Source: Nemertoderma westbladi
Taxonomy: Eukaryota; Animalia; Xenacoelomorpha
Direction: 5' to 3'
Length of the DNA: 47,253 bases
Assembly: GCA_032718475.1 (NCBI GenBank)
Contig: JAUCBJ010005287.1
Location: 1-47,253, forward strand
How positions within the stretch are numbered: the stretch's first letter is position 1; each line of letters begins with the position of its first letter. A model generated the notes under the pieces. That model worked only from the letters and a program-made list of their open reading frames with translations. It was not told where the DNA came from and made no database searches. This document shows, piece by piece, positions 3,361 through 21,362 of the stretch. The translations under genes and the position numbers were made by a program.

Positions 3361-3623
3361 TGTGAGGATATCATTACTAATTGCCATACGCGTAGCCTAT
3401 AGACTATCTATCTCATTAACATACTTTCATATTCGGTAACATTTCTGCTGTACCGCGGTATTAACACTTTTCTGCTGTATGTCAGTACCATATTACTGCA
3501 GTACTGATACTGACGTCTAACAACCTACGTTATTATTAATTATCTTGTTATCATAAAATAAACTTAATCTGAGCGTAGCGGTACGAAATACACCTTGATA
3601 TTTCCTCACCTTATCGTCTCACA
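3361..3623 (+). repeat. 3' long terminal repeat
   Basis: Starts immediately after the PPT; 6-bp inverted termini TGTGAG/CTCACA. Confidence 0.75.
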
Positions 3624-3936
3624 ACACTGTATATATACTACTGCATATATTCTGATTAACGGGGGTAAATGGTACGCCTACACCTTACCAACTACGCCAA
3701 CGAAACACCTAAAACTACATCTATATCTACACCATGCCTACACACATACATGTACCGGTACCGTAGCCGGTAGGTCTATAAATACTGTACATGTGTCTGT
3801 TTATTCTCAATTAAGTTAGATTTTATACAATATTTCTAAAACTTTCGTATTGTTTTGGTTCCTTTCAAGTGCCTTAGCCACTCCACTACTAAACCGTGCT
3901 ACTGCCAACCTCGCCGGATGCTGAACTAACAAAGTG

Positions 3937-3975
3937 TCAGCTAATATCGATAATATCAGAAAGTGCATAGGCTAC
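3937..3975 (-). CDS. Possible terminal coding exon of the SLC6 gene (VAYALSDIIDIS*)
   Basis: tttag acceptor at 3976-3980, phase 0 matches the preceding donor; VAYALS resembles the LAYAI motif after TM12 of DAT/NET. Speculative; the real last exon may lie outside the window. Confidence 0.25.
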   Translation of the reverse strand, partial: VAYALSDIIDIS

Positions 3976-5200
3976 CTAAAATATCAGAAAGTGCATAGGC
4001 TACCTAAAATATCAGCAAGTGCATATAGGCTACCTAAAATATCAGCAAGTGCATAGGCTACCTAAAATATCAGAAAGTGCATATAGGCTACCTAAAATAT
4101 CAGAAAGTGCATATAGGCTACCTAAAATATCAGCAAGTGCATATAGGCTACCTAAAATATCAGCAAGTGGAAGTGCATATGCTACCTAAAATATCAGAAA
4201 GTGCATATAGGGTACCTAAAATATCAGCAAGTGCATAGGCTACCTAAAATATCTGCAAGTGCATATAGGCTACCTAAAATATCAGCAAGTGCATAGGCTA
4301 CCTAAAATATCAGAAAGTGCATATAGGCTACCTAAAATATCAGCAAGTGCATATAGGCTACCTAAAATATCAGCAAGTGCATATAGGCTACCTAAAATAT
4401 CAGCAAGTGCATATAGGCTACCTAAAATATCAGCAAGTGCATAGGCTACCTAAAATATCAGAAAGTGCATAGGCTACCTAAAATATCAGCAAGTGCATAT
4501 AAGCTACCTAAAATATCAGCAAGTGCATATAGGCTACCTAAAATATCAGAAAGTGCATATAGGCTACCTAAAATATCAGAAAGTGCATATAGGCTACCTA
4601 AAATATCAGCAAGTGCATATAGGCTACCTAAAATATCAGCAAGTGCATATAGGCTACCTAAAATATCAGAAAGTGCATATAGGCTACCTAAAATATCAGC
4701 AAGTGCATATAGGCTACCTAAAATATCAGAAAGTGCATATAGGCTACCTAAAATATCAGCAAGTGCATATAGGCTACCTAAAATATCAGAAAGTGCATAT
4801 AGGCTACCTAAAATATCAGCAAGTGCATATAGGCTACCTAAAATATCAGAAAGTGCATATAGGCTACCTAAAATATCAGCAAGTGCATATAGGCTACCTA
4901 AAATATCAGAAAGTGCATATAGGCTACCTAAAATATCAGAAAGTGCATATAGGCTACCTAAAATATCAGAAAGTGCATATAGGCTACCTAAAATATCAGA
5001 AAGTGCATATAGGCTACCTAAAATATCAGAAAGTGCATATAGGCTACCTAAAATATCAGAAAGTGCATATAGGCTACCTAAAATATCAGAAAGTGCATAT
5101 AGGCTACCTAAAATATCAGCAAGTGCATATAGGCTACCTAAAATATCAGCAAGTGCATAGGCTACCTAAAATATCAGAAAGTGCATATAGGCTACCTAAA
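3953..5200. repeat. 28/30-bp minisatellite, about 42 copies
   Basis: Unit ATATCAG(A/C)AAGTGCAT(AT)AGGCTACCTAAA; on the minus strand it reads TTTTAG|GTAGCCTA(TA)TGCAC. Confidence 0.97.
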
Positions 5201-5285
5201 CAAATCAGCATTCGGTCTAGTAAGTGACATCAAACAAGTTGCAAAATGACGAAAGTGATATTGTAAATAGCTACAACACTCTAAC

Positions 5286-5456
5286 CTCTTTCCAAGTAAC
5301 ACCGGAACTTTTGCAAATCTTATATATTGCGACTCCAGGTATAAGAGACATCGAACTCAAAGTGATTAACCATCCAATGAGGTTGGCCCACATCGGGTAC
5401 TCGTATTGGTCGTGTTTAGCAGGTTTATATCCGACGCAACTAAACACAACAATTAT
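5286..5456 (-). CDS. SLC6 exon 13 (TM11-TM12)
   Basis: [57 protein letters not shown]|gttag. Confidence 0.92.
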
Positions 5457-8400
5457 CTAAGAAATAAATAAATAATAATTTCTATTTGATAAACTTTCTC
5501 TAATATTAACTTTATTTATAGTTTCTTTAAAAGTAACTAATTATTTGCAATTGTAAATGCAAATGAATTTACCGCAAGAAATGTAGGACTCAAGAACTTC
5601 CAACAAAATCTCCACCAAATATTTGGTCTTTTTCCCAACATTTCTTCAATATCATCAGAAAATCTAAAACATAAATAATTACATTGTCCTTTATTATTAA
5701 GATTCCCAATAGAAAATAATACACACCATAAGTATTTTAGAAAACAAATTTTAGAAAATCAAACGCAATTTTTATCAAAAATGTATATTTTGCTATTATA
5801 TGTTTCCGCTTGTTTTCAAACACCCTCCAGCCAATGATGTACATACAGCAGGTACAAACAAGTACAGACAACTAACCTACCTATCAACCCCATAAATCCA
5901 TGATATTCCTATGGCCTCGAACAATACGGTGTAGAGAATTGCTGTTCCCGCTGCGTAGGTATCGAATAGCGTCACCATATATGAGCCTCCGTATGTTACA
6001 TTGGAAAGACCAACTAAGAAAGCTATTCCTATAATAATAGCAGTGTAGATTTCTCTTCGAATGGGGAAGTGCGGCCGAATATCATCGTGAGTACCGGTTA
6101 TAACAGATTCCAAACCGCCCATCTAAACAAATTAAGTAGAACATTAAATCTGTAATAGATTCCAAAACAGCTAATCATCCAAAAATAAACTTTTGTAGGT
6201 TGTATCAGTAATGTTAAATTCATTAGCAATCATAATTCTTACCGCACTGTCCAATCCAAGTGTTAATAACATAATAAAGAAAACTACAGCCCAAGCAGTA
6301 GATCCTGGAAGCGTTGCTATGGCTTCAGGGTATACAATAAACACAAGACCCACTCCTTCAGTTGCAACCTGTAATGTAGTTATCATTTTTAGTATTCCGA
6401 GATTAATAATAATTAGTTACATTTACAACAATAAATTAGTTCAGTTAAAATAGGCGTAAAAAAGGGTCACACTCGAACAAATGGCAACATATTTGAATTT
6501 ATGTGTTTTCTAGGCCCAATTTTTTTTTATTATCAACATATCCAAAATAGGCCCCAATCTGATTGTTAGAACTACTGTAGTAGTAGACAATAGGAATATT
6601 TTTTAGTATTAATATTATATTAATAGTACAATCTTCGGCCGCCACCGGGACCGGATTGTAAAAAAGGGAGTTTTATTACAATATTACAAATTATTATAAT
6701 AAACTCAATTTACAGTCGGCAAATAAAACAGTAATAAACTGAAGGGGATTTCCTCACATAAATAATTAAACGGAAGGGTTATTTATTGTTAAACGTAAAA
6801 GCAGAAAAAGGAATCGTACTGAATAACTACTGTGGGGAGAATTCATGGAATTAATATAATCCCTTTCCTATAATCCTATTTCCTATAACCTTTATAGATA
6901 TTATAGATCTACCCAAATAAAAATGTTGGAGAATCCGATGGGGTACTTTTTAAATCCCGTTACCATGGCAATTGTGAGAAATACATCGACAAACTTAGCA
7001 ATTCTGGAACTTATCCGTATTACGTATAAGTTGCAAAATAATGAAACATGGGAAATAATAATTATTATTTTTTAGTAGTTGAAGGATTGAAATGGAATAG
7101 GAGTTAACCTGAATCCTTCCATATAATACAATACTGGAACTACATATAAATAATAAAATATAAAGCATATATATATACTAAAATACTGGAACTTAAAGTA
7201 TTGGAACTTCTAAAGTTTGCCGCTAAAGGGCGAAATTTTCTGAAAGTGACAACATTATCTCATTTCGTTATTTGTTATCCGTTCATGCTGAAACTTTGCA
7301 AATATAGGCCTACGTGCTAAACCGTCCATAGGTAAGTGTTCTTCATTCTACAGCTAGTGGGCTGAATTTAAAAAACATTTTAGAATGAATCAGTAATTCT
7401 GAAATGAAAAACTTTCGTATTATTTTTTTCGCTATTTCGTATTATTATAATACCTAACACATTCTTACCTTGTCAATAGGAACTCCTTGTTTGTGACTCA
7501 TATAGCCCAATACAGAAAATATAACGAATCCACTGATAAAACTTGTACCGCAATTTACCGAAGATGTAATAATAGCGTCCCTAAAAGCAAAAATAAATAT
7601 TTTTGGAATGGAAAACAAAAATGGTTTTATCTCGCTAACCCCGAGATGTTTTGCTTGCCGCTTTAGCGATGTAGCCATGTATATTCGTTGTATACGTCAA
7701 TGTAAAATAAATATATAATGGGTATATAAATGCTACCAAAACCAAATACTTTAAGAATGGAAGCTTAGTCACCATCGATGGCCTCCCATCATGAACGGTG
7801 GCTCTACTGTGGTAAACTACGTGAATTTATGCATGATTTCTTAATATACATGCACTTTTTAAATTTTGTTAATTTAATTAGTTGGTGCACCAGACTGACC
7901 TTTCATCAATAACTTACATGTAACAATTGTTATTAAATTTGTTGTAACTCGAATAGGCAATGAGAACTCCAAAGCCACAGCCAAGTGAATAGAATATTTG
8001 GGTAGCAGCATCAATCCAAACTTGGGATTTACCTAATAAAAGGAATATTCGGCATAATACTTCTTATTAATTGATTGAGGCTGATAAAATGTTCACGTAT
8101 TATTTAATTTTAATGTGATAGTTATGTTAGGTGGAGGCTATATTAAAATATTACTATGCTTAAAAAAATTATTTCAAACTAGTATTTAATATACATGATA
8201 TTCTATATATTTAATGTTTTACCTACCGAGTTTATATATGTTTGGTATTAAATAGTATTTTATACCGTCCATCGATCCTTCCAATGTAACACCTCGGATA
8301 AACAATATAAACAGCATGAAATATGGCAGAGTGGCAGTCACCCAAACAACCTAAATAATATAAACACGATAAAGTATGGGATATGGCAGAGTGGCAGTCA

Positions 8401-11400
8401 GCCAAACAACCTAAACAATAACTACAGCATGAAATATGGCAGAGTGGCAGTCACCCAAACAACCTAAATAATATAAAAAACGATAAAGTATGGGATATGG
8501 CAGAGTGGCTGTCACCCAAACAACCTAAATAATATAAACAGCATGAAATATGGCAGAGTGGCAGTCAGCCAAACAACCTAAACAATAAATACAGCATGAA
8601 ATATGGCAGAGTGGCAGTCACCCAAACAACCTAAATAATATAAACACGATAAAGTATGGGATTTGGCAGAGTGGCAGTCAGCCAAACAACCTAAACAATA
8701 ACTACAGCATGAAATATGGCAGAGTGACAGTCACCCAAACAACCTAAACAATATAAACAGCATGAAATATGGCAGAGTGGCAGTCACCCAAACAACCTAA
8801 ATAATATAAAAACGATAAAGTATGGGATATGGCAGAGTGGCTGTCACCCAAACAACCTAAATAATATAAACAGCATGAAATATGGCAGAGTGGCAGTCAC
8901 CCAAACAACATAAATAATATAAAAAACGATAAAGTATGGGATATGGCAGAGTGGCTGTCACCCAAACAACCTAAATAATATAAACAGCATTAAATATGGC
9001 AGAGTGGCAGTCACCCAAACAACCTAAATAATATAAAAAACGATAAAGTATGGGATATGGCAGAGTGGCTGTCACCCAAACAACCTAAATAATATAAACA
9101 GCATGAAATATGGCAGAGTGGCAGTCAGCCAAACAACCTAAACAATAAATACAGCATGAAATATGGCAGAGTGGCAGTCACCCAAACAACCTAAATAATA
9201 TAAACACGATAAAGTATGGGATTTGGCAGAGTGGCAGTCAGCCAAACAACCTAAACAATAACTACAGCATGAAATATGGCAGAGTGACAGTCACCCAAAC
9301 AACCTAAACAATATAAACAGCATGAAATATGGCAGAGTGGCAGTCACCCAAACAACCTAAATAATATAAAAACGATAAAGTATGGGATATGGCAGAGTGG
9401 CTGTCACCCAAACAACCTAAATAATATAAACAGCATGAAATATGGCAGAGTGGCAGTCACCCAAACAACATAAATAATATAAAAAACGATAAAGTATGGG
9501 ATATGGCAGAGTGGCTGTCACCCAAACAACCTAAATAATATAAACAGCATTAAATATGGCAAAGTGGCAGTCACCCAAACAACATAAATAATATAAAAAA
9601 CGATAAAGTATGGGATATGGCAGAGTGGCTGTCACCCAAACAACCTAAATAATATAAACACGATAAAGTATGGGATATGGCAGAGTGGCAGTCAGCCAAA
9701 CAACCTAAACAATAACTACAGCATGAAATATGGCAGAGTGGCAGTCACCCAAACAACCTAAATAATATAAAAAACGATAAAGTATGGGATATGGCAGAGT
9801 GGCTGTCACCCAAACAACCTAAATAATATAAACAGCATGAAATATGGCAGAGTGGCAGTCAGCCAAACAACCTAAACAATAAATACAGCATGAAATATGG
9901 CAGAGTGGCAGTCACCCAAACAACCTAAATAATATAAACACGATAAAGTATGGGATTTGGCAGAGTGGCAGTCAGCCAAACAACCTAAACAATAACTACA
10001 GCATGAAATATGGCAGAGTGACAGTCACCCAAACAACCTAAACAATATAAACAGCATGAAATATGGCAGAGTGGCAGTCACCCAAACAACCTAAATAATA
10101 TAAAAACGATAAAGTATGGGATATGGCAGAGTGGCTGTCACCCAAACAACCTAAATAATATAAACAGCATGAAATATGGCAGAGTGGCAGTCACCCAAAC
10201 AACATAAATAATATAAAAAACGATAAAGTATGGGATATGGCAGAGTGGCTGTCACCCAAACAACCTAAATAATATAAACAGCATTAAATATGGCAAAGTG
10301 GCAGTCACCCAAACAACCTAAACGATATAAACACAATAAAGTATGGGATATGGCAGAGTGGCAGTCACCCAAACAACCTAAACATTATAAATAAGAAGTA
10401 TTGGATTGGCAGAGTCAAAAAAATAATTTTAGAATTACATGTTAAGATACTATAGCCTAATAATATGGTAGGTAAAGTAGATTTCATAAAATCTACAATG
10501 TGTAACTGTCTTCGTTTTCATGGTAATGGATAGATGGTTCTAAAAATATCAGGATTTACATTTTGTTTAAACTTTTTAGCGCTCAACTTTTTTTCAATTT
10601 TGAATTTATTGAAGTAAAAAAAGTTTTTTTAGAAAATATAATTCTTGGGGGTGACCAAAGAAAATTTTTTGAATTTCGAAATGAGAAATATAACGTACCA
10701 GTTAACGTGGAAACGAGCAAGATGACACACATAGATTGGAGATACGATATAGATTTTTTTTCAAAAATCATCTATAATATAATCAAAATATTTTATTGTG
10801 TACATTATTTACGGGCATTGCGTGTCTTTATAAATTTTGTATGTAATGCAGATTAATCTGCGTCAGTAACGGATTAATTCTTACTTTTCCGCTCATCTTC
10901 ACGCCTTTCCAAAGACTGAAGTAAAGTATGAGGAACACAAATAGTAAACAGAGAGCCAGTTGCCATTTAACGTTCCCGAGATCGTGAATACCTTGGCTGA
11001 GATCAACATTTAATGCAGATCTTCTGTAAGAGTTAAACGAATAATAATTAGTGGTTGGTTGGCGGCTAGAGTGGTTACAGGAGTGGTGGCACAAATTATT
11101 ATAAGTGGCTGGTTGGCAGCTAGAGTGGTTACAGGAGTGGTGGCACAAATTATTATAAGTCGTTGGTTGGCAGCTAGAGTGGTTACAGGAGTGGTGGCAC
11201 AAATTATTATAAGTCGTTGGTTGGCAGCTAGAGTGGTTACAGGAGTGGTGGCACAAATTATTATAAGTCGTTGGTTGGCCAACCAATGCATCAGAGCCAG
11301 AACAAGCAGTCAAGTTTTATGAAGAACTGACTGGACTTATTAAGGACATCCCGAAACACAATGTTAAAGTCATTGCTGGTGACCTGAATGCGCAAATTGG

Positions 11401-14400
11401 CCCAGAAGACATCAAGGGTTACACCTATAACACCAGTTCTAACAGAAATGGGTACTTACTTTTAGACCTAATGGAAGAATGTGAATTGATACCAACAAAC
11501 AACACATTCGAAAAGAGTAAGGGGAAGCTATGGACCTTTCAATACCCTAATGGAACCAAAGCACAACTGGATTACATCCTTATAAACAAAAAGTGGAGAA
11601 ATAGCATGATCAACTGCGAGGCATACAGCTCGTTCAACCTAATTGGTTCGGACCTCAGAATTGTGACTGCAGAGATCAGACTCAGTTTGAGAGCCAGCAA
11701 ACCCAGGACAAGCAAGCAAATCAACTATGACTGGGAGAAACTCAGAACTGACAATGCTGTAAAGGATGCTTATACAGTAGAAGTTCAAAACCGCTTTGAA
11801 GCACTTCAGTCAATGGATGAAGACCAATCCACCGATTCAATATACCAGAATATAATAACAGCCCACAAGGAATCAGCTAAGAGGCATATCCCCCAGAAAC
11901 CTAAACGAAAACAGTATGTGCCATGGCAAAACTCTGAGGTTACTTGTAAGAGAGAAGATCTTAAGATAGCCTACAAAGTTAAAACCGAACAACCAACAAC
12001 CGAAAACATTAACAAGGTTGAGAAAGCTAAGGAGGATCTTAAATTGGCCTACAACATCAGCCAGGAAAAGTACATACAGGATAAAACTGAAGCAATTACA
12101 ACTGCTCACATACAGCAACAATCAAGACTTACCTGGCAAACTGTAAATGAGGTATCTGGTCGGAAAAGTTGTGCAAATGGGCGCCTCAAAGCCGATAGTC
12201 CTGAAGAACGTGTTGGGAAGTGGAAAAATCACTTCAGCAACTTGCTTGGGCAGCCACCAAACATCGAGGTCAGCCCTACAAGGAAAATATATGACAAGAC
12301 ACTACCTATAGAAACAGGGGACTTCACACCTGCCGAACTCCAAAGAAGCATTAAAAGCATGTCAAATAATAAAGCGAGTGGATTAGATGAAATCCCAGCG
12401 GAGGTATGGAAAACCGGAGTGCTAAATAGACCATTATTGAATGTTTGCAACCGGATGTTAAAAGGGGAAAAGCCACCACCAATTTGGACTAAAGGTCAAC
12501 TAAAGCCTCTTCCCAAGAAAGGAGACCTCGGCATACCAACAAACTATAGTGGGATCTGTCTGCTTGTGGTAGCTGCCAAAATATATAATAAAATGATTCT
12601 ATATAGGATTAGGCCTCACATAGAGAAACTACTGCGTAAGAGCCAAAACGGATTTCGACCAAGTAGATCAACAATAGCTCAGATACTTGCACTACGGAGA
12701 CTGATTGAAGGAATTAAGTCAAAGAATCTCCCCGCAGTCATGACTTTTGTGGACTTCAAGAAGGCATTCGACTCCATCCATAGAGGTAAAATGCTTGAAA
12801 TCCTAAGAGCTTATGGAATACTAGAAGTAATTGTTGCTGGCATTGGATTGTTATATTGTGACACAGAAGCGCAGGTACTCTCACCAGATGGTGAAACTGA
12901 GTTTTTCTCAATCCTGGCTGGCGTACTGCAAGGTGACACATTAGCACCATTACTATTTGTAATTGTGCTGGATTACGCAATGAGGACGGCCACAAAGGGT
13001 GAAGATCTGGGATTCACACTTCAAGAACGCAGAAGTAGTAGATATCCGGCAACTACAGTCACAGACACCGACTTTGCGGATGACATCGCCCTGCTCTCTA
13101 ATACGCTAGCAGATGCACAGCTTCTACTAAATAAAGTGGAGAGGGCTGCTAAGGAGGTTGGATTGCATATAAATGCTACCAAGACCGAATTCATGACCTT
13201 TAACCTAAGGAAGGTCGATTACTTCCAGTACCTTGGATCATGGATAGAGAGTAGCAAAAAGGACATAGAAGTTAGGAAAGCAAAGGCTTGGGTAGCTCTA
13301 TCAAAAATGGATACCATCTGGAAATCAGATCTCTCCAGGCACCTGAAGACTAAGTTCTTTCGAGCCACAGTGGAAAGTGTATTTTTATACGGCGGTGAGA
13401 CCTGGACACTGACTAAATCACTTGAACAACGAATTGATGGTTGCTACACAAGACTACTAAGGGCAGCCCTAAACATCAGCTGGAGACAACACATGACAAA
13501 CGCCGAGCTTTATGGTACAATACCACCTGTATCAACCACCCTCCGTAAACGCAGATTAAGATTCAGTGGGCACTGCTGGCGAAGTAAAGACGAGGTCATA
13601 CCAGATCTACTTCTCTGGCAACCAACTCATGGAAAGCGTAGTCGTGGACGACCTGCCATAACATATATAGATCAACTTGAAAGGGATACTGAACTTGGGA
13701 GAAACGAAATTGCGACAACTATGGAGAATCGGGAAGCCTGGAAGGATCTCATTTCCACTGTCCGAGTTCGCTCGACCTCGTATTAGTAGTAGTTGGTTGG
13801 CAGCTAGAGTGGTTACAGGAGTGGTGGCACAAATTATTATAAGTCGTTGGTTGGCAGCTAGAGTGGTTACAGGAGTGGTGGCACAAATTATTATAAGTCG
13901 TTGGTTGGCAGCTAGAGTGGTTACAGGAGTGGTGGCACAAATTATTATAAGTCGTTGGTTGGCAGCTAGAGTGGTTACAGGAGTGGTGGCACAAATTATT
14001 ATAAGTGGCTGGTTGGCAGCTAGAGTGGTTACAGGAGTGGTGGCACAAATTATTATAAGTGGTTGGTTGGCAGCTAGAGTGGTTACAGGAGTGGTGGCAC
14101 AAATTATTATAAGTGGCTGGTTGGCAGCTAGAGTGGTTACAGTAGTGGTGGCACAAATTATTATAAGTGGCTGGTTGGCAGCTAGAGTGGTTACAGTAGT
14201 GGTGGCACAAATTATTATAAGTCGTTGGTTGGCAGCTAGAGTGGTTACAGGAGTGGTGGCACAAATTATTATAGGTCGTTGGTTGGCAGCTAGAGTGGTT
14301 ACAGGAGTGGTGGCACAAATTATTATAAGTCGTTGGTTGGCAGCTAGAGTGGTTACAGGAGTGGTGGCACAAATTATTATAAGTCGTTGGTTGGCAGCTA

Positions 14401-17400
14401 GAGTGGTTACAGGAGTGGTGGCACAAATTATTATAAGTGGCTGGTTGGCAGCTAGAGTGGTTACAGGAGTGGTGGCACAAATTATTATAAGTGGTTGGTT
14501 GGCAGCTAGAGTGGTTACAGGAGTGGTGGCACAAATTATTATAGGTCGTTGGTTGGCAGCTAGAGTGGTTACAGGAGTGGTGGCACAAATTATTATAAGT
14601 CGTTGGTTGGCAGCTAGAGTGGTTACAGGAGTGGTGGCACAAATTATTATAAGTCGTTGGTTGGCAGCTAGAGTGGTTACAGGAGTGGTGGCACAAATTA
14701 TTATAAGTCGTTGGTTGGCAGCTAGAGTGATTACAGGAGTGGTGGCACAAATTCTTAATTAAAATTTCATGAAACTCACAATCAAGAAATTCTTAGACTA
14801 GGATTTTTGTTTGGGTTACATTGACTGGCCTATTTGGACACCACAATAGTATAAACCTTGCCAATGGAATGAGCATGTTCTAAAATCTCAGAGGCTAAGC
14901 TATATGGCCGATTTACCTACTTTGAAAACAATTTCGACCGTCTTTCACTTTTGGTAGACTTTTAGTGTCTGTTTCAAATCCGTGTATTCCCTCATACTCT
15001 AACTTACTTTTGATTATTAATAATGAATCAAAAAATCATAATACGTTGAAATATGTCCGCTTTCAGATGAAGCAAATAAAAACTTTATAGCTCCAGTAAT
15101 TTTCAAGATATGGGGAGTACCTCTCACCCATGTCAGTATTTTTGGAAATTGAAAAAAATTACTCACTATACACCTCCCATCAATTACATATTTTTAATTA
15201 GGGCCAAGTAGTTTCGACGCACTAGACCTAATGTTTTCTCTTGTATTCTAACTAAGAGAGATATCTGTCTCATAAAATTTAGGAGGATTGCAGCAGCTTG
15301 GGGGGTCGTATCTGTTGTGCCGGTAGGTCATAAACCACTGCGAGGGTCACGCTTGGATAGGGACCACTCTTTATCCTAGAATGATTCACAGGGGGTTATC
15401 CAGCTGTCAGAGACAAAAATAATGAAGATGGGAGTTGATATGGCATTTTATTTGTTGTACTTACTCAAAATATTGTAGTGCCGGTGACTCGCCATGTGTA
15501 GTGAGATTGTAAGTGATATTATCCATGGTAACTGTTCCGTTATGGGAACCTGTGGAACACAGCGGGGTGTTCCAATTATTGGTACAGAACTTCCACGGTA
15601 CATCACGCCGAAATGACTGAACTGCAAAATAGTTTCATATAATTGTGTCAGTAATATCTCGCCCATTGTGTAAGTAATAAAATACACACACTTCACGGAA
15701 TATTAATTTAAAATGGTTATTATTTTACGACAGTTGCTCAAGTAACCCATAATTGTAACTTTCGACTCGATTACATAATTAACATGATAGCTAGTAATTA
15801 ATAATTATTTGAGTATTATGCGTCACAAGGTTTATCATTTGGTATAATTTCCCGCCGCAAGTAATATTTATAGCGATATTAGATATATTTCGTTAGATAT
15901 CTGCGGTTTTTTTAACTGAACTATTTATGGAAGAAGTATAGCCAGGTATTGTAGTTGTGCGTGTAACCATTATTCTGTTTTTTTTTCAATGACTGTTTTT
16001 GGCTATTGATTTATGTTAACTTTCTGGAACATAATTATGGGAGGGGGGGGGGGGGGGGGGGTTAGTGCATTAAGTCTATAGGGTTATCGACAAGTACGAC
16101 GGTTACGCATGATGCCAATATTACGGCCCAATAATATTATATATAATAATATATAATATTAAGCGGAAACAGTATATTAAATTCGCAACCGAAGCAACAG
16201 AACTCTTAACAAGTGTTCCAGAAAGTTTAAAATATTACATGGCAACTGTTGAAGTAAACTCTAAGAATGAGATCTAGAACTAGCGTTTATCATAAATAAT
16301 AATAATCTTTTTACAGTAGTTTATCATAAATGTATCATAAATATGATGCAAATTGCAATCTTTTACTAAACAAATATTTTTTGTATTTTTTATAAACATT
16401 CCAGTTAGGATATGAAAACTCGAGTTATTATTGAATACACGGGCGAGCTACCTCGAAAATTTAACATGTTCGGAGTCGAAAACATAAATCAATAGACAAA
16501 AAAAGCAATAAAACAACTATTAAAAAAGCACAAAAAGGTGACAAGGGATAAAAATATATCCAGGAACGGTTTCGACATCCGATCCATTATTTCCTTATAT
16601 ATTGGTTATTTTTTCTAGTGAAAATTGGCACTAGTTCGATATGTGTCACCATTTGCATTTTCACGGAATTTATCCTAATTGTGTTTGCGACTTTTTATCA
16701 ATTTTTTTTAAATAAGATCGGCTTGTACTAAATTTTCTGATAGCCGGTGCATTTTTACGGTAGCTAGTGTTTTTTAAAGGTGGGCGTAGGCAGCATCTAG
16801 TTACGTAATAAATAATTAATTATTCGAGATCATTAAATTATTTAACAGTAAGGCAGAATCAGGAGTTTAATAGTAAAATAATTTGCAATCACAATATCTA
16901 TGGAAGCAATATAGTAAAATATTACAGTTCAATATAATAATGTTTTGTAAGACTATTTCGTTCGATCTTTTAATAAAGAATCAAGCAACAAAAAGAATAT
17001 TTATATTTTTTTTATTTGGTTTTGCAGGCGCCCTTAGGGTATATTTACATTCTTATCAGGGCGTAAAAAGTACCGATTTAAGAATAAAATTACTTGTTAC
17101 ATGGGAAAATACGTAGAACGTTTTTTTCCCCAAGTATTAAATAATTATATTTTACTTTTTTTCGCTATGTATGCAATCCAATTGGTTACTTCATTCCTCA
17201 GGGAAAAAAAATTACTTTTCCCCCGGTTTTGGACTATATTTGAGGGAAAAAGTAACAATTCAAGAATAAAACACATTTTTACGGATAAATGAATAATGTC
17301 AGAAACCTACAAAATATAACTTGTAAAAATTTGATGACTGGTTTGTGGACATGCGTGTTTTTGCCTAGGAAAAGAAGAGAGATTATACCAAAAAAAAACA

Positions 17401-20400
17401 CGCTTGTTGAAAAGTTATACTGTATTTCCTCGGATTTCTCAGAATGAATTTTTTATTGAGTATGCTTCTTCAATTACAATGTCTCCTATAATTACGCAAA
17501 TTTTCAAAATTAGCAGAAAACATTGCCGAAGAAGATAATTACTAATATAAGCAAAATATATGGAAATTACTTTGTAAAGTATTATCGTTCTGAACTCCGT
17601 CGTTACATCAATTCGTTGAGACAATATGTCCAAAATAATAAATACTTAATTGAATTGTAATGGCAGCAATAGAAGACATTTATATTAAGTTCCTTAGTTA
17701 TGTAAATTTGTTCAACAAATACCGTTTTTGGTGCGTTTGCATGACCTGCGGATTAGCGACGTTAGCAGCGCTTGCTATCGGTAAGACCGTAGTTTACAGA
17801 CTGTTTACAACGCGGTTGAGAAATCTATTAGGTTTCAATGTTGTGGTAAATCAAGGCGATAATTATGAGAGGCGGAGAATGAGAGGAAGAGGGCCGCGAG
17901 TGAAATTATCCGCGAGTTCTGTGAGTCAGGCGTTAGGTGGAGTCACGAGTCTTCCGGGGATCTCCGACGATTGGGGCAGGAAAGTGGGGAGTTTCATTGA
18001 GTCGAACAATGATGTTGCGACAACTCCTCACAAAAAGTTGCCTACAAGAAGGGTACCGCCGAGGCGAACCCAAACCCCACCGAGAAACCAGTACATCTGG
18101 AACGCGAGTAAACTACGACATCTGGAGGACTTCGAAGAATCAACTACTTCGAGTAAGACGACCAGCGACGAAGTTTCAGATGGATTTAAGAGTTGTGTTG
18201 AACTCAAACAAAAAATAAAAGACCTTACAGCCGCACTGGATAAAGAAACGTCCCAGAAAGCTTTTGAAACATTAGAGAGGTTGGCAGTAGAAGATAATCT
18301 TTTGGAATACAAAGTGCAAAACGAAGAACTCGCCAGTAAAGTAGATTTATTAATGATGGAAAGGGAAGAACAAACACAACAGCTTGTTGACTTGAAAAAT
18401 GTGTTATTAAATGAAAGAGTGGCTAGCGAACAACTAGTTCACAATCTGAAGAATGAACTTGATGAAGAAAGATGTAAATCAGAAAGTCTAAATAGGAATA
18501 ATATTGATATCAAGTCGGGTGATGCGGAGATGGTACCAGTCGGGATGTTAAAGGAAAAGGAAGCAGAGATTAAGGAGCTTCACACTGATATGGAGTCGCT
18601 CATGAAGGTAGTCAAAGATATGGAATTGCAAGTGAAACAATTGGCTCTTTCTCAAGAAAATAACAACGATTTATCAAACGACAACATCCTTAGTGTCAGC
18701 GATAGTCCAGTGGCGATAGTACCTTCTTCACTTTAACAATAATAACTATCTTAACAAAGGAATGGGGAACTATTTCTTTTAAACAACGTATATTTCGTAT
18801 GGTTGCCCACTTCAGCAACAACAAAATAATATACAGAAGTTTATTGTTCTTCTTTAACTGTTGTTAACTGTTTACTGTATTTGCCGTGGGAATTTGCTGT
18901 GACCTTCGAAGGCAAATCAATATCCCCTGGCGATTTTATGTAAGATTCCACAGTAAACCCTTCCAGTCTCACGTAAATGGAGTTACATTACTGTAATATT
19001 GATCTTTGATAAGACATACAAAATGTGTGTAACGTAACCAACAGAGTGATTCTTATTCAGTTTTTTTTATTTATGATGTACAATATCCTTTGTAGTTCGC
19101 AATACGCAATAATAAGTTGTGCAACTACTACTGTAGATAATGTACCGGTACTTACCCAAGTAAAATAACGCCCACGCGATAATCGCATTATAATAAAACG
19201 CAACGTAGAAGGCAATGAGGCAAGCAGAATAGCCAACACCTATGGTAGATAAATAATACATATCAGTTTTAATCTCCCATTATGGAACATCAAGTTTGAT
19301 TAACGAAATTCGTTTGCCATTCAATAAAATAGACCCATTTCACCTCCATTAGTCTGTACATATACAGTACATACATACACATAACTTATATTTACTTACC
19401 TTTAAGGATAGGACAGCATCTTGGCCAAATTGTAATGGGTCCCTGCCGCTGGTACTGGCCGAGGGCCAACTCCATGTAAAACAAAGGGATTCCGCCGATT
19501 ACCAACATCAGAACGTAAGGAATCAAAAACGCTCCTAAATAATTAATTGAGGTCGGATTTTATCGGAAACCAGAAATTTGGTTGGACGTCGGAATTTATA
19601 AAATTTGTCACCTCACCTGCATTGAGCCGAATTACAAATTAAACTAATAATAATACAGTAATAAATGAATTGTTGTGGGGTGAATGACAGTGATGTCATA
19701 TTGTCCTATTACATTATATAATTTGAAATATTGCTGAGGCGAATGTTGACATTTTTCTAAGTTAGAAAATCTGTAATGAACCTCATGGAGTGAACCTCTC
19801 TCTGTACCGATAGGGAACATCATGGCCTACTGCCTGCAGAAAATCACTGATTGTTAATCTTACCGCCCCCGTTTTTGTAGCACAAGTACGGAAACCTCCA
19901 AATATTAGCCAGATCCACCGCGAATCCGATGACAGAAAGTAGGAAGTCCGCTTTGCCGCTCCAAGTTATCCGGTTAAAATCATCCGAATCAATTGCGGCG
20001 ACCTGCGAAAATAACAAGCAATATCTCAGTATTATTCTAAACTAAAACTAATTAAATAAAGTATAGGTAACCTAGTAGTTGTGGCACGGTTAGCGCCCCG
20101 GCCAGCCTATATTAACATATTGAAAGAAACTATGTCATTAAAAATATTAGTAATAATAAAAAACAAGCAATATTCGATATTGTATATATCACACGATCAC
20201 TTGAAAAATATAAAAAGATTTTATACGTAGGCCTACTTCTTTCTGGCAGAATATGATAAAGGAGGTAAACCTGCCTAAACTGTGCAGCAATCGGTGGGGG
20301 TACCCTCAGCGACAATAGTGTCCAGTGTCTTAACTAAACGGTGATCTTAAAAACAATACAATATAGCAGCCATGACAGAGGAATCAAATACTTGCAGTTT

Positions 20401-21362
20401 CCACGGGAAATGTGCAGATGAATTCTTATTGCAAAATATCGAAAATTTGGTTTAACGTTTTCACATTCACATTTTCAGTTTCACAGTTTCACATTTTCAT
20501 TTGTGTAAATTCATAATGGTTTCTAGTTTCGTGTCCGCAGTAATAAAGGTCCTTAATACACGTATGAATTGCACGGTACAATTTTAATATTATTTATGAC
20601 AGATGGAGGGATATCGTCAGTTTGACCGTTTATAACAAAAAAATTTGATTTACTTTCATTGATCACCAATACCGTACCGGATATATTGCCTACATTGTAA
20701 TGTGAAAAAAAATCGAGCAACATTTCCTCTGAAAATACTGAGCGAACATTCGAGACAGGGGGGAAACTGGACGCAAAACCCGCCTTGGCGAATTAATAAT
20801 ATCCCGCCTCAATGTTAATCAATGTTAATTTAACCAAAACAACAAACTAAACACATTAGAACAGGTTACAGTTTTATTTTTGAGAGTAATCATCTGTTAT
20901 TAATTTGCGTCGAATTTCCCCTGGAGAGGGTTTAACTTTTATTGTGTCCAGTTTCCCCCCCTATCTGGAACATTCTTGTAATTGGTTCTCAAACATTCCG
21001 AACTTACTACCGAACGAACTATAAAGATAAAGACAAAATACTGAAAACGGATGAGTTGACTGATCATCTATTACATTATGTCGGCCTATGTTTGGGTAAT
21101 TATTTAATTCTGTCTAGGCCATTTGATTAGTTGCAAATCAGGTTTTTTTTACTTTTCCCATATATGCAGCTGGTGCTAAGTGATCCATATGGTTTACCTG
21201 TAAATCAACCACCTCTTCATACGGAGGCGGTTTTTCTTCGATTGTTTTTCCGCTTCCCAGTTTAATTTCCTTCATCGATATCGCGGTATCGCAATCACTG
21301 AGTCCCGAAACATCCACTCCGAAATCGCTGAAGCGACCAGAGGCAATATTTATACCTGCCAT
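5286..21362 (-). CDS. SLC6A2/SLC6A3-like: Na+/Cl--dependent monoamine transporter (SLC6, dopamine/noradrenaline/octopamine transporter-like), 13 exons visible, 600 codons, C-terminus unresolved
   Basis: join(complement): 21198-21362, 19864-20002, 19400-19534, 19156-19239, 15465-15621, 10885-11023, 8227-8350, 7918-8032, 7469-7580, 6243-6368, 5881-6122, 5573-5663, 5286-5456. All introns are GT-AG with compatible phases (sum 1800 nt). Motifs: [92 protein letters not shown]. Confidence 0.95.
5573..5663 (-). CDS. SLC6 exon 12 (TM11 start)
   Basis: [30 protein letters not shown]. Confidence 0.95.
5881..6122 (-). CDS. SLC6 exon 11 (TM8-TM10)
   Basis: [10 protein letters not shown]...[15 protein letters not shown]...[12 protein letters not shown]. 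Confidence 0.95.
6243..6368 (-). CDS. SLC6 exon 10 (EL4 and TM8)
   Basis: [42 protein letters not shown]. Confidence 0.95.
7469..7580 (-). CDS. SLC6 exon 9 (TM7)
   Basis: [37 protein letters not shown]. Confidence 0.95.
7918..8032 (-). CDS. SLC6 exon 8 (TM6)
   Basis: [38 protein letters not shown]. Confidence 0.95.
8227..8350 (-). CDS. SLC6 exon 7 (TM5)
   Basis: tttag|[41 protein letters not shown]|gtagg. Confidence 0.93.
8351..10415 (-). repeat. 53/60/61-bp minisatellite made of the exon-7 acceptor plus exon start, about 36 extra copies
   Basis: Each unit reads tttag|GTTGTTTGGGTGACTGCCACTCTGCCATAT, matching the first 30-50 nt of exon 7. Confidence 0.97.
10885..11023 (-). CDS. SLC6 exon 6 (TM4)
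   Basis: [46 protein letters not shown]|gtaag. Confidence 0.95.
11280..13791 (+). mobile_element. 5'-truncated RTE-type non-LTR retrotransposon (partial APE plus RT), young
   Basis: Uninterrupted frame from about 11279 (PTN...[10 protein letters not shown]) to the stop at 13786; RT motifs [28 protein letters not shown]; RTE-like C-terminus GHCWR...GKRSRGRP; (TAG)n tail; TSD GTTGGTTGGC at 11270-11279 and 13792-13801. Confidence 0.93.
11471..13786 (+). CDS. LINE endonuclease/reverse transcriptase ORF (N-terminally truncated)
   Basis: 771-aa ORF with the APE C-terminal part (LDYIL, SDLR) and a full RT domain. Confidence 0.9.
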   Translation: MEECELIPTNNTFEKSKGKLWTFQYPNGTKAQLDYILINKKWRNSMINCEAYSSFNLIGSDLRIVTAEIRLSLRASKPRTSKQINYDWEKLRTDNAVKDAYTVEVQNRFEALQSMDEDQSTDSIYQNIITAHKESAKRHIPQKPKRKQYVPWQNSEVTCKREDLKIAYKVKTEQPTTENINKVEKAKEDLKLAYNISQEKYIQDKTEAITTAHIQQQSRLTWQTVNEVSGRKSCANGRLKADSPEERVGKWKNHFSNLLGQPPNIEVSPTRKIYDKTLPIETGDFTPAELQRSIKSMSNNKASGLDEIPAEVWKTGVLNRPLLNVCNRMLKGEKPPPIWTKGQLKPLPKKGDLGIPTNYSGICLLVVAAKIYNKMILYRIRPHIEKLLRKSQNGFRPSRSTIAQILALRRLIEGIKSKNLPAVMTFVDFKKAFDSIHRGKMLEILRAYGILEVIVAGIGLLYCDTEAQVLSPDGETEFFSILAGVLQGDTLAPLLFVIVLDYAMRTATKGEDLGFTLQERRSSRYPATTVTDTDFADDIALLSNTLADAQLLLNKVERAAKEVGLHINATKTEFMTFNLRKVDYFQYLGSWIESSKKDIEVRKAKAWVALSKMDTIWKSDLSRHLKTKFFRATVESVFLYGGETWTLTKSLEQRIDGCYTRLLRAALNISWRQHMTNAELYGTIPPVSTTLRKRRLRFSGHCWRSKDEVIPDLLLWQPTHGKRSRGRPAITYIDQLERDTELGRNEIATTMENREAWKDLISTVRVRSTSY
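15465..15621 (-). CDS. SLC6 exon 5 (extracellular loop 2)
   Basis: [22 protein letters not shown]...ESPALQYFE with the conserved disulfide pair and N-glycosylation sequons; not in the ORF track in this frame. Confidence 0.93.
17660..18736 (+). CDS. Nested intronless 358-aa protein: N-terminal hydrophobic segment, basic/Ser-Pro-rich linker, C-terminal coiled coil
   Basis: Long ATG-initiated ORF in AT-rich intron 4 of the SLC6 gene; hydrophobic stretch [23 protein letters not shown]; heptad-like E/K/L-rich C-terminal half; no TE motifs seen. Confidence 0.75.
   Translation: MAAIEDIYIKFLSYVNLFNKYRFWCVCMTCGLATLAALAIGKTVVYRLFTTRLRNLLGFNVVVNQGDNYERRRMRGRGPRVKLSASSVSQALGGVTSLPGISDDWGRKVGSFIESNNDVATTPHKKLPTRRVPPRRTQTPPRNQYIWNASKLRHLEDFEESTTSSKTTSDEVSDGFKSCVELKQKIKDLTAALDKETSQKAFETLERLAVEDNLLEYKVQNEELASKVDLLMMEREEQTQQLVDLKNVLLNERVASEQLVHNLKNELDEERCKSESLNRNNIDIKSGDAEMVPVGMLKEKEAEIKELHTDMESLMKVVKDMELQVKQLALSQENNNDLSNDNILSVSDSPVAIVPSSL
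19156..19239 (-). CDS. SLC6 exon 4 (TM3)
   Basis: [28 protein letters not shown], canonical splice sites. Confidence 0.95.
19400..19534 (-). CDS. SLC6 exon 3 (TM2)
   Basis: [45 protein letters not shown], canonical splice sites. Confidence 0.95.
19864..20002 (-). CDS. SLC6 exon 2 (TM1)
   Basis: cgcag|[46 protein letters not shown]|gtaag. Confidence 0.95.
20744..20975. mobile_element. Small MITE-like inverted-repeat element in SLC6 intron 1
   Basis: AGGGGGGAAACTGGAC (20757) versus GTCCAGTTTCCCCCC (20946), with imperfect outward extension. Confidence 0.6.
21198..21362 (-). CDS. SLC6 exon 1 (cytoplasmic N-terminus MAGINIASG...[11 protein letters not shown])
   Basis: ATG at 21362, phase-0 donor CAG|gtaaac matching the phase-0 exon 2; not itself a conserved region. 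Confidence 0.7.

What the first reader, a model, noticed from the sequence alone, without database searches (positions are those of the whole stretch)
8227..10415. Essential exon preceded by about 36 tandem copies of its own splice acceptor and exon start
Seen: intron 6 of the transporter contains about 36 extra copies of tttag|GTTGTTTGGGTGACTGCCACTCTGCCATAT, the true exon-7 acceptor plus the [10 protein letters not shown] codons. About 32 keep the AG; four (near 8904, 9464, 9578, 10198) have lost it. Only the most distal copy continues into the full exon. Splicing to any upstream copy either frameshifts or, if in frame, meets a TAG (at the latest the acceptor TAG at 8351-8353), so every decoy is non-productive. 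The rest of the ORF is intact. Each unit starts GT and ends AG, so it is formally a 53-61 nt mini-intron. Inference: the gene needs distal-AG selection, or recursive (ratchet) re-splicing at AG|GT points, or the array tunes transporter dosage through NMD. It also resembles the tandem-duplication model of intron gain caught in progress.
Basis: partly seen in the sequence, partly recalled or inferred. Interest (0 to 1): 0.82.

Follow-up and report, generated by a model that had tools for sequence, protein, structure and literature searches.

The report
Mirage acceptor repeat in amine transporter
In an animal's monoamine-transporter gene, the end of an intron and the start of the next exon are repeated 36 extra times in a row, a repeat type already known from lancelets as a "mirage" and found at other genes of this genome, and the cell likely splices past the spare copies to the last one.

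Summary
The array is real: 36 extra copies (53, 60 or 61 nt) of the intron-6 acceptor plus exon-7 start of an octopamine/noradrenaline-transporter-like SLC6 gene; 32 keep AG, and all hit a stop within 13-37 codons. Three DNA runs from two studies hold it at high depth. All 7 exonic differences in those runs are silent, so intact protein is likely still made. No RNA holder was listed, so splicing is unseen. It fits the lancelet "mirage" class (PMC3087553; BflGb6 is acceptor-type) and resembles human CBS 844ins68. It is not special here: 8 of 80 introns I modelled carry such arrays, and the scan noted many more on other contigs of this genome. Recursive splicing is poorly supported (the regenerated donor outscores only 2 of 79 real donors); intron gain does not fit (six paralogs share the intron). 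Likely route: cross-exon pairing with the donor 124 nt downstream. Remaining oddities: splice-site arrays look enriched (6-7 versus 1.5 expected), and two or three paralogs show duplications at this same junction.

The parts
8351..10377 (-). Minisatellite of 36 decoy units (53, 60 or 61 nt), each the first 30 nt of exon 7 plus a tail ending in the acceptor; 14 unit variants; three 560-nt ten-unit higher-order blocks
   Evidence: units, order MJ ABCDEFGHI KLAJ ABCDEFGHI N ABCDEFGHI KL; blocks 10264-9705, 9530-8971, 8970-8411 differ by 5, 0 and 5 nt
8227..8350 (-). True exon 7 (124 nt, [10 protein letters not shown]...), the only copy that keeps the reading frame; its acceptor is itself a repeat unit
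8221..8226 (-). Donor of intron 7, the likely partner that defines exon 7; matrix score 8.3, above 29 of 79 real donors
10378..10416 (-). Unique intron end before the first unit, likely the ancestral acceptor; weakly resembles exon 7 nt 14-52 (25 of 2000 shuffles reach the score), with short matches 53 and 56 nt apart
10378..10884 (-). Non-repeat part of intron 6 (507 nt) with the donor at 10884
10885..11023 (-). Exon 6 (ends ...GVKMSGK, phase 0; last bases AAA, so no AG|GT is regenerated on joining)
5286..21362 (-). Coding exons 1-13 of the host gene, an octopamine/noradrenaline/dopamine-transporter-like SLC6; 600 open codons; exon 14 lies off the contig
   Evidence: exon 14 on G000:C476 at 61786 (+)

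Best explanation
This is a minisatellite of 36 extra copies of the intron-6 acceptor and exon-7 start in a monoamine-transporter gene, of the kind called a mirage in lancelets, likely born by slippage and likely tolerated because the spliceosome would pair the donor just behind exon 7 with the nearest acceptor, the last copy. Shown: the anatomy, the stops in all decoys, the presence in two studies' DNA, and similar arrays at other genes. Inferred: origin by slippage at short matches between the old intron end and the exon, growth by unequal exchange (three near-identical 560-nt blocks), choice of the last AG by exon definition helped by the exon's unique last 71 nt, and loss of any mis-spliced RNA to nonsense-mediated decay. 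No role of its own is needed.
For: Anatomy and stops. Real in DNA: depth ratios of 5 repeat contigs match the window's 31-mer counts (X1 12.6 vs 10.9 and 3.7 vs 3.7; X3 12.8 vs 11.2, 9.1 vs 8.9, 4.1 vs 3.9). Gene likely working: 7 of 7 exonic differences in exons 6-9 in runs X1-X3 are silent, as are 2 of 2 in exons 10-13 and 2 of 2 in exon 14 between assembly copies. Local sequence cannot pick the site: 14 of 32 AG decoys score at or above the true acceptor and three share 32 nt upstream and 40 nt downstream with it, so position or downstream exon sequence must decide. Even the first decoy is 507 nt from the upstream donor, beyond the 200-250 nt often cited for intron definition (PMC4338349 passages). 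Common in this genome: 8 of 80 modelled introns. Precedent: mirages reported not to disturb splicing (PMC3087553; PMC3902484); in CBS 844ins68 the distal copy of a duplicated intron/exon junction is strongly favoured (PMC2630376).
Against: No transcript of this gene was seen, so distal choice is inferred. Exon length alone does not exclude the nearest decoys: they would give exons of 184, 237, 298, 351 and 404 nt, and this genome has modelled internal exons of 342-447 nt; the decoy at 8463 scores higher than the true site (12.3 vs 10.1). In Drosophila, intron definition was seen at all intron sizes (PMC8906543 passages), which would favour the first-transcribed decoys. Similar size and unit mix in a second study's sample, while a 30-bp array in intron 13 is 42 vs 3 copies between gene copies, could mean constraint. 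The short matches are 53 and 56 nt apart, so the 60-61-nt unit needs a further small insertion.
Confidence: 0.72

Rival explanations
1. The array is leaky enough to matter: the nearest decoys take a real share of splicing, those RNAs are destroyed by nonsense-mediated decay, and array length or unit mix sets transporter dosage.
For: 14 of 32 AG decoys score at or above the true site; the nearest five give exon lengths found in this genome. Human ABCA7 VNTR length changes splicing, including retention of one unit with a frameshift (PMC5954066 passages). Array size looks similar in two studies.
Against: Nothing measured here shows decoy use; lancelet mirages were reported not to disturb splicing; such arrays also sit in myosin and kinesin genes, which suggests a general by-product.
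Confidence: 0.16
2. Recursive (ratchet) splicing: exon 6 joins an early copy and is re-spliced stepwise to the last.
For: 31 internal unit junctions read TAG|GTTGTT, formally a juxtaposed acceptor and donor (definition in PMC8906543).
Against: After joining, the donor is AAA|GTTGTT: score 1.1, above only 2 of 79 real donors; 0 of 80 donors lack both -1 G and +5 G. Using an internal AG|GT instead leaves stop-bearing units in the RNA. The intron is 2.5 kb, whereas recursive splicing is described for exceptionally long introns.
Confidence: 0.04
3. The gene is no longer expressed or is dispensable, so the array is free.
For: The gene also carries a LINE-like insertion in intron 5 and an LTR retrotransposon in intron 13.
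Against: 600 open codons with canonical GT-AG introns, an intact last exon, 7 of 7 exonic differences silent.
Confidence: 0.04
4. Intron gain by tandem duplication of an AG|GT-bounded segment, caught in progress.
For: Units begin GT and mostly end AG; PMC3087553 proposes mirages as a route to new introns.
Against: The intron is old: six other SLC6 genes have it at the same position. No unit keeps an open frame, and units are shorter than all 80 modelled introns.
Confidence: 0.03
5. Assembly artefact.
For: No contig spans the array; the higher-order blocks are near-identical, so their exact order is unconfirmed.
Against: High depth and matching unit variants in 3 of 3 holding runs from 2 studies.
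Confidence: 0.01

Closest known systems
Amphioxus 'mirage' minisatellites (globin BflGb6 and BflGb9, Adh3, troponin C, PGBD5); PMC3087553 and PMC3902484, passages seen
   Same: Head-to-tail copies of the gene's own intron-exon border; BflGb6 is acceptor-type (intron 3' end plus exon 5' part); many but not all units keep the splice signal; edge unit differs from homogenised inner units; unit length within the 10-72 nt given for Adh3.
   Different: 36 copies against 6 and 3 for BflGb6; two unit lengths in a ten-unit higher-order block; normal splicing was checked by RT-PCR there but is unseen here; length polymorphism of this array not shown.
Human CBS c.844_845ins68 (PMC2630376, passages seen; Romano 2002 only as cited there)
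   Same: Duplicated intron/exon junction in which the distal copy is used and the upstream exon piece is dropped.
   Different: One 68-bp duplication, not an array; polymorphic in people.
Human splice-site VNTRs: F7 IVS7 37 bp (PMC1557585, abstract seen), CBS 31 bp c.1444_1467+7(16_21), ABCA7 25 bp (PMC5954066 passages)
   Same: Minisatellites that multiply a real splice site; the exon-adjacent copy is the normal one.
   Different: All donor-side; the F7 model of first-come 5' scanning cannot explain choice of the last acceptor; ABCA7 shows a length effect that is untested here.
Drosophila recursive-splicing ratchet points (PMC8906543 passages)
   Same: Intronic AG|GT junctions.
   Different: Ratchet points are zero-nucleotide exons in very long introns; here the donor left after joining is among the weakest by this genome's own matrix and the sites are 53-61 nt apart.

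Membership tests
Mirage minisatellite | Tandem repeat whose unit spans an exon-intron boundary of the host gene | tested here: met
   array runs to 52 nt inside exon 7; units hold acceptor plus exon start
Mirage minisatellite | Many but not all units keep the AG/GT splice signal | tested here: met
   32 of 36 decoys keep AG
Mirage minisatellite | Concerted evolution inside the array, boundary unit excluded | tested here: met
   560-nt blocks differ by 0-5 nt; first unit M is unique; the last decoy L has an identical inner twin, so only one edge is excluded
Mirage minisatellite | Length instability between haplotypes | tested here: inconclusive
   Contig depth suggests a similar size in run X3, but X3 flank depth is 51.5 on one side and 13.1 on the other; no contig spans the array
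Mirage minisatellite | Regular splicing undisturbed | not testable with these tools
   No RNA run was available for this gene; only indirect support from silent-only exonic variation
Recursive-splicing ratchet point | Juxtaposed acceptor and donor around AG|GT | tested here: met
   31 internal junctions
Recursive-splicing ratchet point | Usable donor after the first splicing step | tested here: not met
   score 1.1, above 2 of 79 real donors; lacks -1 G and +5 G; by sequence only
Recursive-splicing ratchet point | Nascent intermediates spliced to the intronic site | not testable with these tools
   needs nascent RNA reads
Intron gain by tandem duplication | Intron absent at that position in homologues | tested here: not met
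   same phase-0 K|V intron in C3286, C8915, C7348, C1650, C2589, C8237
SLC6 monoamine transporter (host gene) | Closest relatives are octopamine/noradrenaline/dopamine transporters | tested here: met
   exon 11 best PDB hit human noradrenaline transporter, E 4e-18; best database hits an octopamine transporter and a noradrenaline-transporter-like protein; no tree built, substrate untested

The most novel reading that the evidence does not exclude
In this animal, splice junctions are themselves a hotspot for the birth of minisatellites (6-7 of 79 other introns against about 1.5 expected), and one junction, the K|V acceptor of SLC6 genes, has been duplicated independently in three or four of seven paralogs, caught at stages from a 12-19-nt remnant to 37- and 51-copy arrays. 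That would point to a mutational process tied to splicing (for example spliceosome-linked pausing or RNA-DNA hybrids) and give a natural series for testing how the last of dozens of equal acceptors is chosen against the order of transcription.
Probability: 0.2. Interest if true: 0.7.

Novelty: new member of a known kind. Interest (0 to 1): 0.3.

Why it matters
As a single locus it is a mid-sized example of a described class, in a genome where the scan has noted far larger ones. Its value is as a test piece: three decoys match the true acceptor over 72 nt and are transcribed first, so any rule based on local sequence or first-come splicing fails, and exon definition can be tested directly with a 2.7-kb minigene. 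The repeated duplication at one homologous junction and the apparent excess of arrays at splice sites would matter for how minisatellites arise, if they hold in an unbiased genome-wide count.

Tried and rejected
RNA: no RNA holder listed; run X5 laid 0 contigs on both flanks; neither says anything on expression. The 30-bp array at 3952-5210 as a second acceptor array feeding the last exon: my aligner proposed it, rejected because an intact exon 14 exists on C476 and that array has only 3 copies in the duplicate. A link between duplication and AG|GT exon starts: seen for the acceptor cases but post hoc, mostly one homologous junction, and donor arrays are as common; not claimed. A CTGAC branch-point-like variant sits in the unit before the true AG, but also before 7 of 36 decoys; not evidence of selection. 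PF00122 search gave 9 long single-block matches and was not used. Paper searches: four terms on acceptor duplication and intron gain, 0 papers; mirage/minisatellite/exon-intron/amphioxus, 2 papers; two searches gave nothing on point. The original Adh3 mirage paper and Tsai 1996 were not held, so they are known only as cited. No earlier scan note matched this sequence. Supplements were not read; those of PMC3087553 (BflGb6 alignment) bear on the unit-level comparison.
Full report
Observation. On the - strand the exon-7 start occurs 37 times from 10377 to 8350. The 36 upstream units are 53, 60 or 61 nt in 14 variants, ordered MJ ABCDEFGHI KLAJ ABCDEFGHI N ABCDEFGHI KL; three 560-nt blocks differ by 5, 0 and 5 nt. 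32 of 36 decoys follow AG, 4 follow AT. All 36 meet a stop after 13-37 codons. The window is the whole of contig C5287, and a DNA search with 7900-8420 found only this locus and one paralog exon (2 candidates scored).

Host gene. Thirteen coding exons from 21362 to 5286 give 600 open codons with GT-AG introns; a spliced aligner I wrote recovered the same introns 2-12 from a database relative. Exon 11 is closest to noradrenaline and dopamine transporters in the PDB and to octopamine/noradrenaline-transporter-like proteins in the large collection (4 hits among 92 candidates). Exon 14 is not in the window. A 64-codon last exon lies on C476 (+, 61786) behind an LTR whose flanking 5-mer matches the one at window 3626, with 98% identity over 520 nt of the element's inside; I infer that the gene continues there. 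C476 also holds an inverted partial copy of exons 10-14.

Is it real? Six runs were listed, three hold the stretch, from two studies, none on record as RNA. I laid 4 of the 6 on the two flanks. X1, X2 and X3 show summed depth of roughly 900-1950 over the repeat against 13-52 on the flanks (sums double-count overlapping contigs). For 5 of the listed repeat contigs (4 exact, 1 with 3 other letters) depth over distal-flank depth matched the window's 31-mer counts: 12.6/10.9, 3.7/3.7, 12.8/11.2, 9.1/8.9, 4.1/3.9. X2 and X3 (one sample) differ from the window at many flank sites, so they are other haplotypes; X1 may be the source (0 differences over 929 nt on one side, 6 over 406 on the other). X3's flank depth is uneven (51.5, 13.1), so absolute copy number there is uncertain, and no contig spans the array.

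Does the gene work? All 7 differences that searches list inside exons 6-9, after setting aside 2 rows at 8329 and 8341 that come from repeat units or the paralog, are silent. So are 2 of 2 between exons 10-13 and the C476 copy and 2 of 2 between the two exon-14 copies. About three in four random coding changes alter a residue (general knowledge), so purifying selection is likely, and with it enough correct splicing.

How is the last AG chosen? With matrices from 79 other modelled introns, 14 of 32 AG decoys score at or above the true acceptor, and those at 9924, 9190 and 8630 share 32 nt upstream and 40 nt downstream with it. Local sequence therefore cannot decide. The true copy differs in lying 124 nt from a good donor and in owning the exon's last 71 nt. 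The first decoy is already 507 nt from the upstream donor, past the 200-250 nt cited for intron definition (PMC4338349, passages). I infer exon definition. Against: the five nearest decoys give 184-404-nt exons, within this genome's range (342-447 nt seen), and Drosophila data show intron definition at all sizes (PMC8906543, passages). Some leak, removed by NMD, is plausible and unmeasured.

Recursive splicing, mini-introns, intron gain. Exon 6 ends in AAA, so joining to a unit leaves a donor scoring 1.1, above 2 of 79 real donors; 0 of 80 donors lack both -1 G and +5 G. Internal AG|GT sites score 3.4 (above 5 of 79) and their use would keep stop-bearing units. Units are shorter than all 80 introns (72, then 99 nt). 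Six other SLC6 genes have the same phase-0 K|V intron, so the intron is old.

Origin. The unique intron end before the first unit weakly resembles exon 7 (25 of 2000 shuffles reach the score), with short matches 53 and 56 nt apart. Slippage there followed by unequal exchange is inferred.

The genome. I modelled SLC6, myosin and kinesin genes (26 stretches, 21) and kept 80 introns on 24 contigs whose two exons had tblastn support, dropping C476 and C4836 as duplicates. Of 31 arrays, 7 span a splice site by a strict rule (3 acceptors including this one, 4 donors; 3-133 copies); an eighth, C2127, does so by eye. Random placement expects 1.52; without the window's intron, 6 gives P=0.005 and 7 gives P=0.001. 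The sample is not random, the models lack RNA, the null is crude, and introns longer than my stretches are missed. At the K|V acceptor, C8915 has a 51-copy array, the serotonin-transporter-like paralog C3286 (label from my reading of its sequence) has a decayed copy with an exact 19-mer of its own exon 57 nt upstream, and C7348 a 12-mer (0 of 2000 shuffles each); C1650, C2589 and C8237 have none. Counting remnants, 3 of 6 against 1 of 73 other acceptors gives P=0.001; arrays only, 1 of 6, P=0.15 (post hoc).

Known kinds. Earlier scan notes gave the name 'mirage' and list many donor and acceptor arrays on other contigs of this genome, some of hundreds of copies, several reporting spliced contigs that use the exon-adjacent copy (unchecked, not counted as support). 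I read the passages: PMC3087553 describes tandem duplications of intron-exon borders in lancelet, acceptor-type in BflGb6 (6 and 3 units), not disturbing splicing; PMC3902484 repeats this. PMC2630376 describes CBS 844ins68, a duplicated intron 7/exon 8 junction with the distal site favoured (it calls the sites donors). F7 (abstract), CBS 31-bp and ABCA7 are donor-side human cases.

Verdict. Observation confirmed; a new, mid-sized member of a known kind, likely tolerated through distal selection (0.72). Interest 0.3. The open lead is the genome-wide excess at splice sites and the repeated hit at one junction.

Noticed in passing
window 3361-3626 and G000:C476:61207-61522 (L125 1186-1501): A full LTR retrotransposon sits in intron 13, antisense to the gene, with a 5-nt target-site duplication; its two ends lie on different contigs and split the gene in the assembly.
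   Followed up: partly
G000:C476:36849-41790 (L089): Inverted partial copy of exons 10-14 of the gene (95% identical overall, coding differences silent), without the LTR element; allele, partial duplicate or mis-join is unsettled.
   Followed up: partly
window 3952-5210: 30-bp array of 42 copies in intron 13 with an acceptor-like AG|GT in each unit; only 3 copies in the C476 copy. Not the true last exon.
   Followed up: yes
window 11050-11279 and 13781-14757: The same 54-bp unit forms two arrays (4 and 18 copies) on either side of a LINE-like reverse-transcriptase insertion in intron 5; the smaller ends 26 nt from the exon-6 acceptor.
   Followed up: no
L012 1624-1690 (G000:C3286:57375-57440): Paralogous transporter with a decayed single copy of its own exon start in a 102-nt intron; seen in contig ends of X1, X2 and X3.
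   Followed up: partly
G000:C8915:95421-97019 and 98562-100542 (L086): One SLC6 gene carries both a 51-copy acceptor array and a 71-copy donor array.
   Followed up: partly
G000:C5720:20289, C2042:14344, C9009:23281, C1576:65731, C2127:28684: Further splice-site arrays in an SLC6, two myosin and two kinesin genes (3 to about 200 copies).
   Followed up: partly
L025-L054, L139-L150: Many SLC6 and kinesin genes match as single open blocks (12 kinesin motor domains without introns), beside relatives with many introns; suggests heavy intron loss in this genome.
   Followed up: no
window about 17750-18900 (+ strand): Coding-like stretch inside intron 4 on the strand opposite to the transporter.
   Followed up: no
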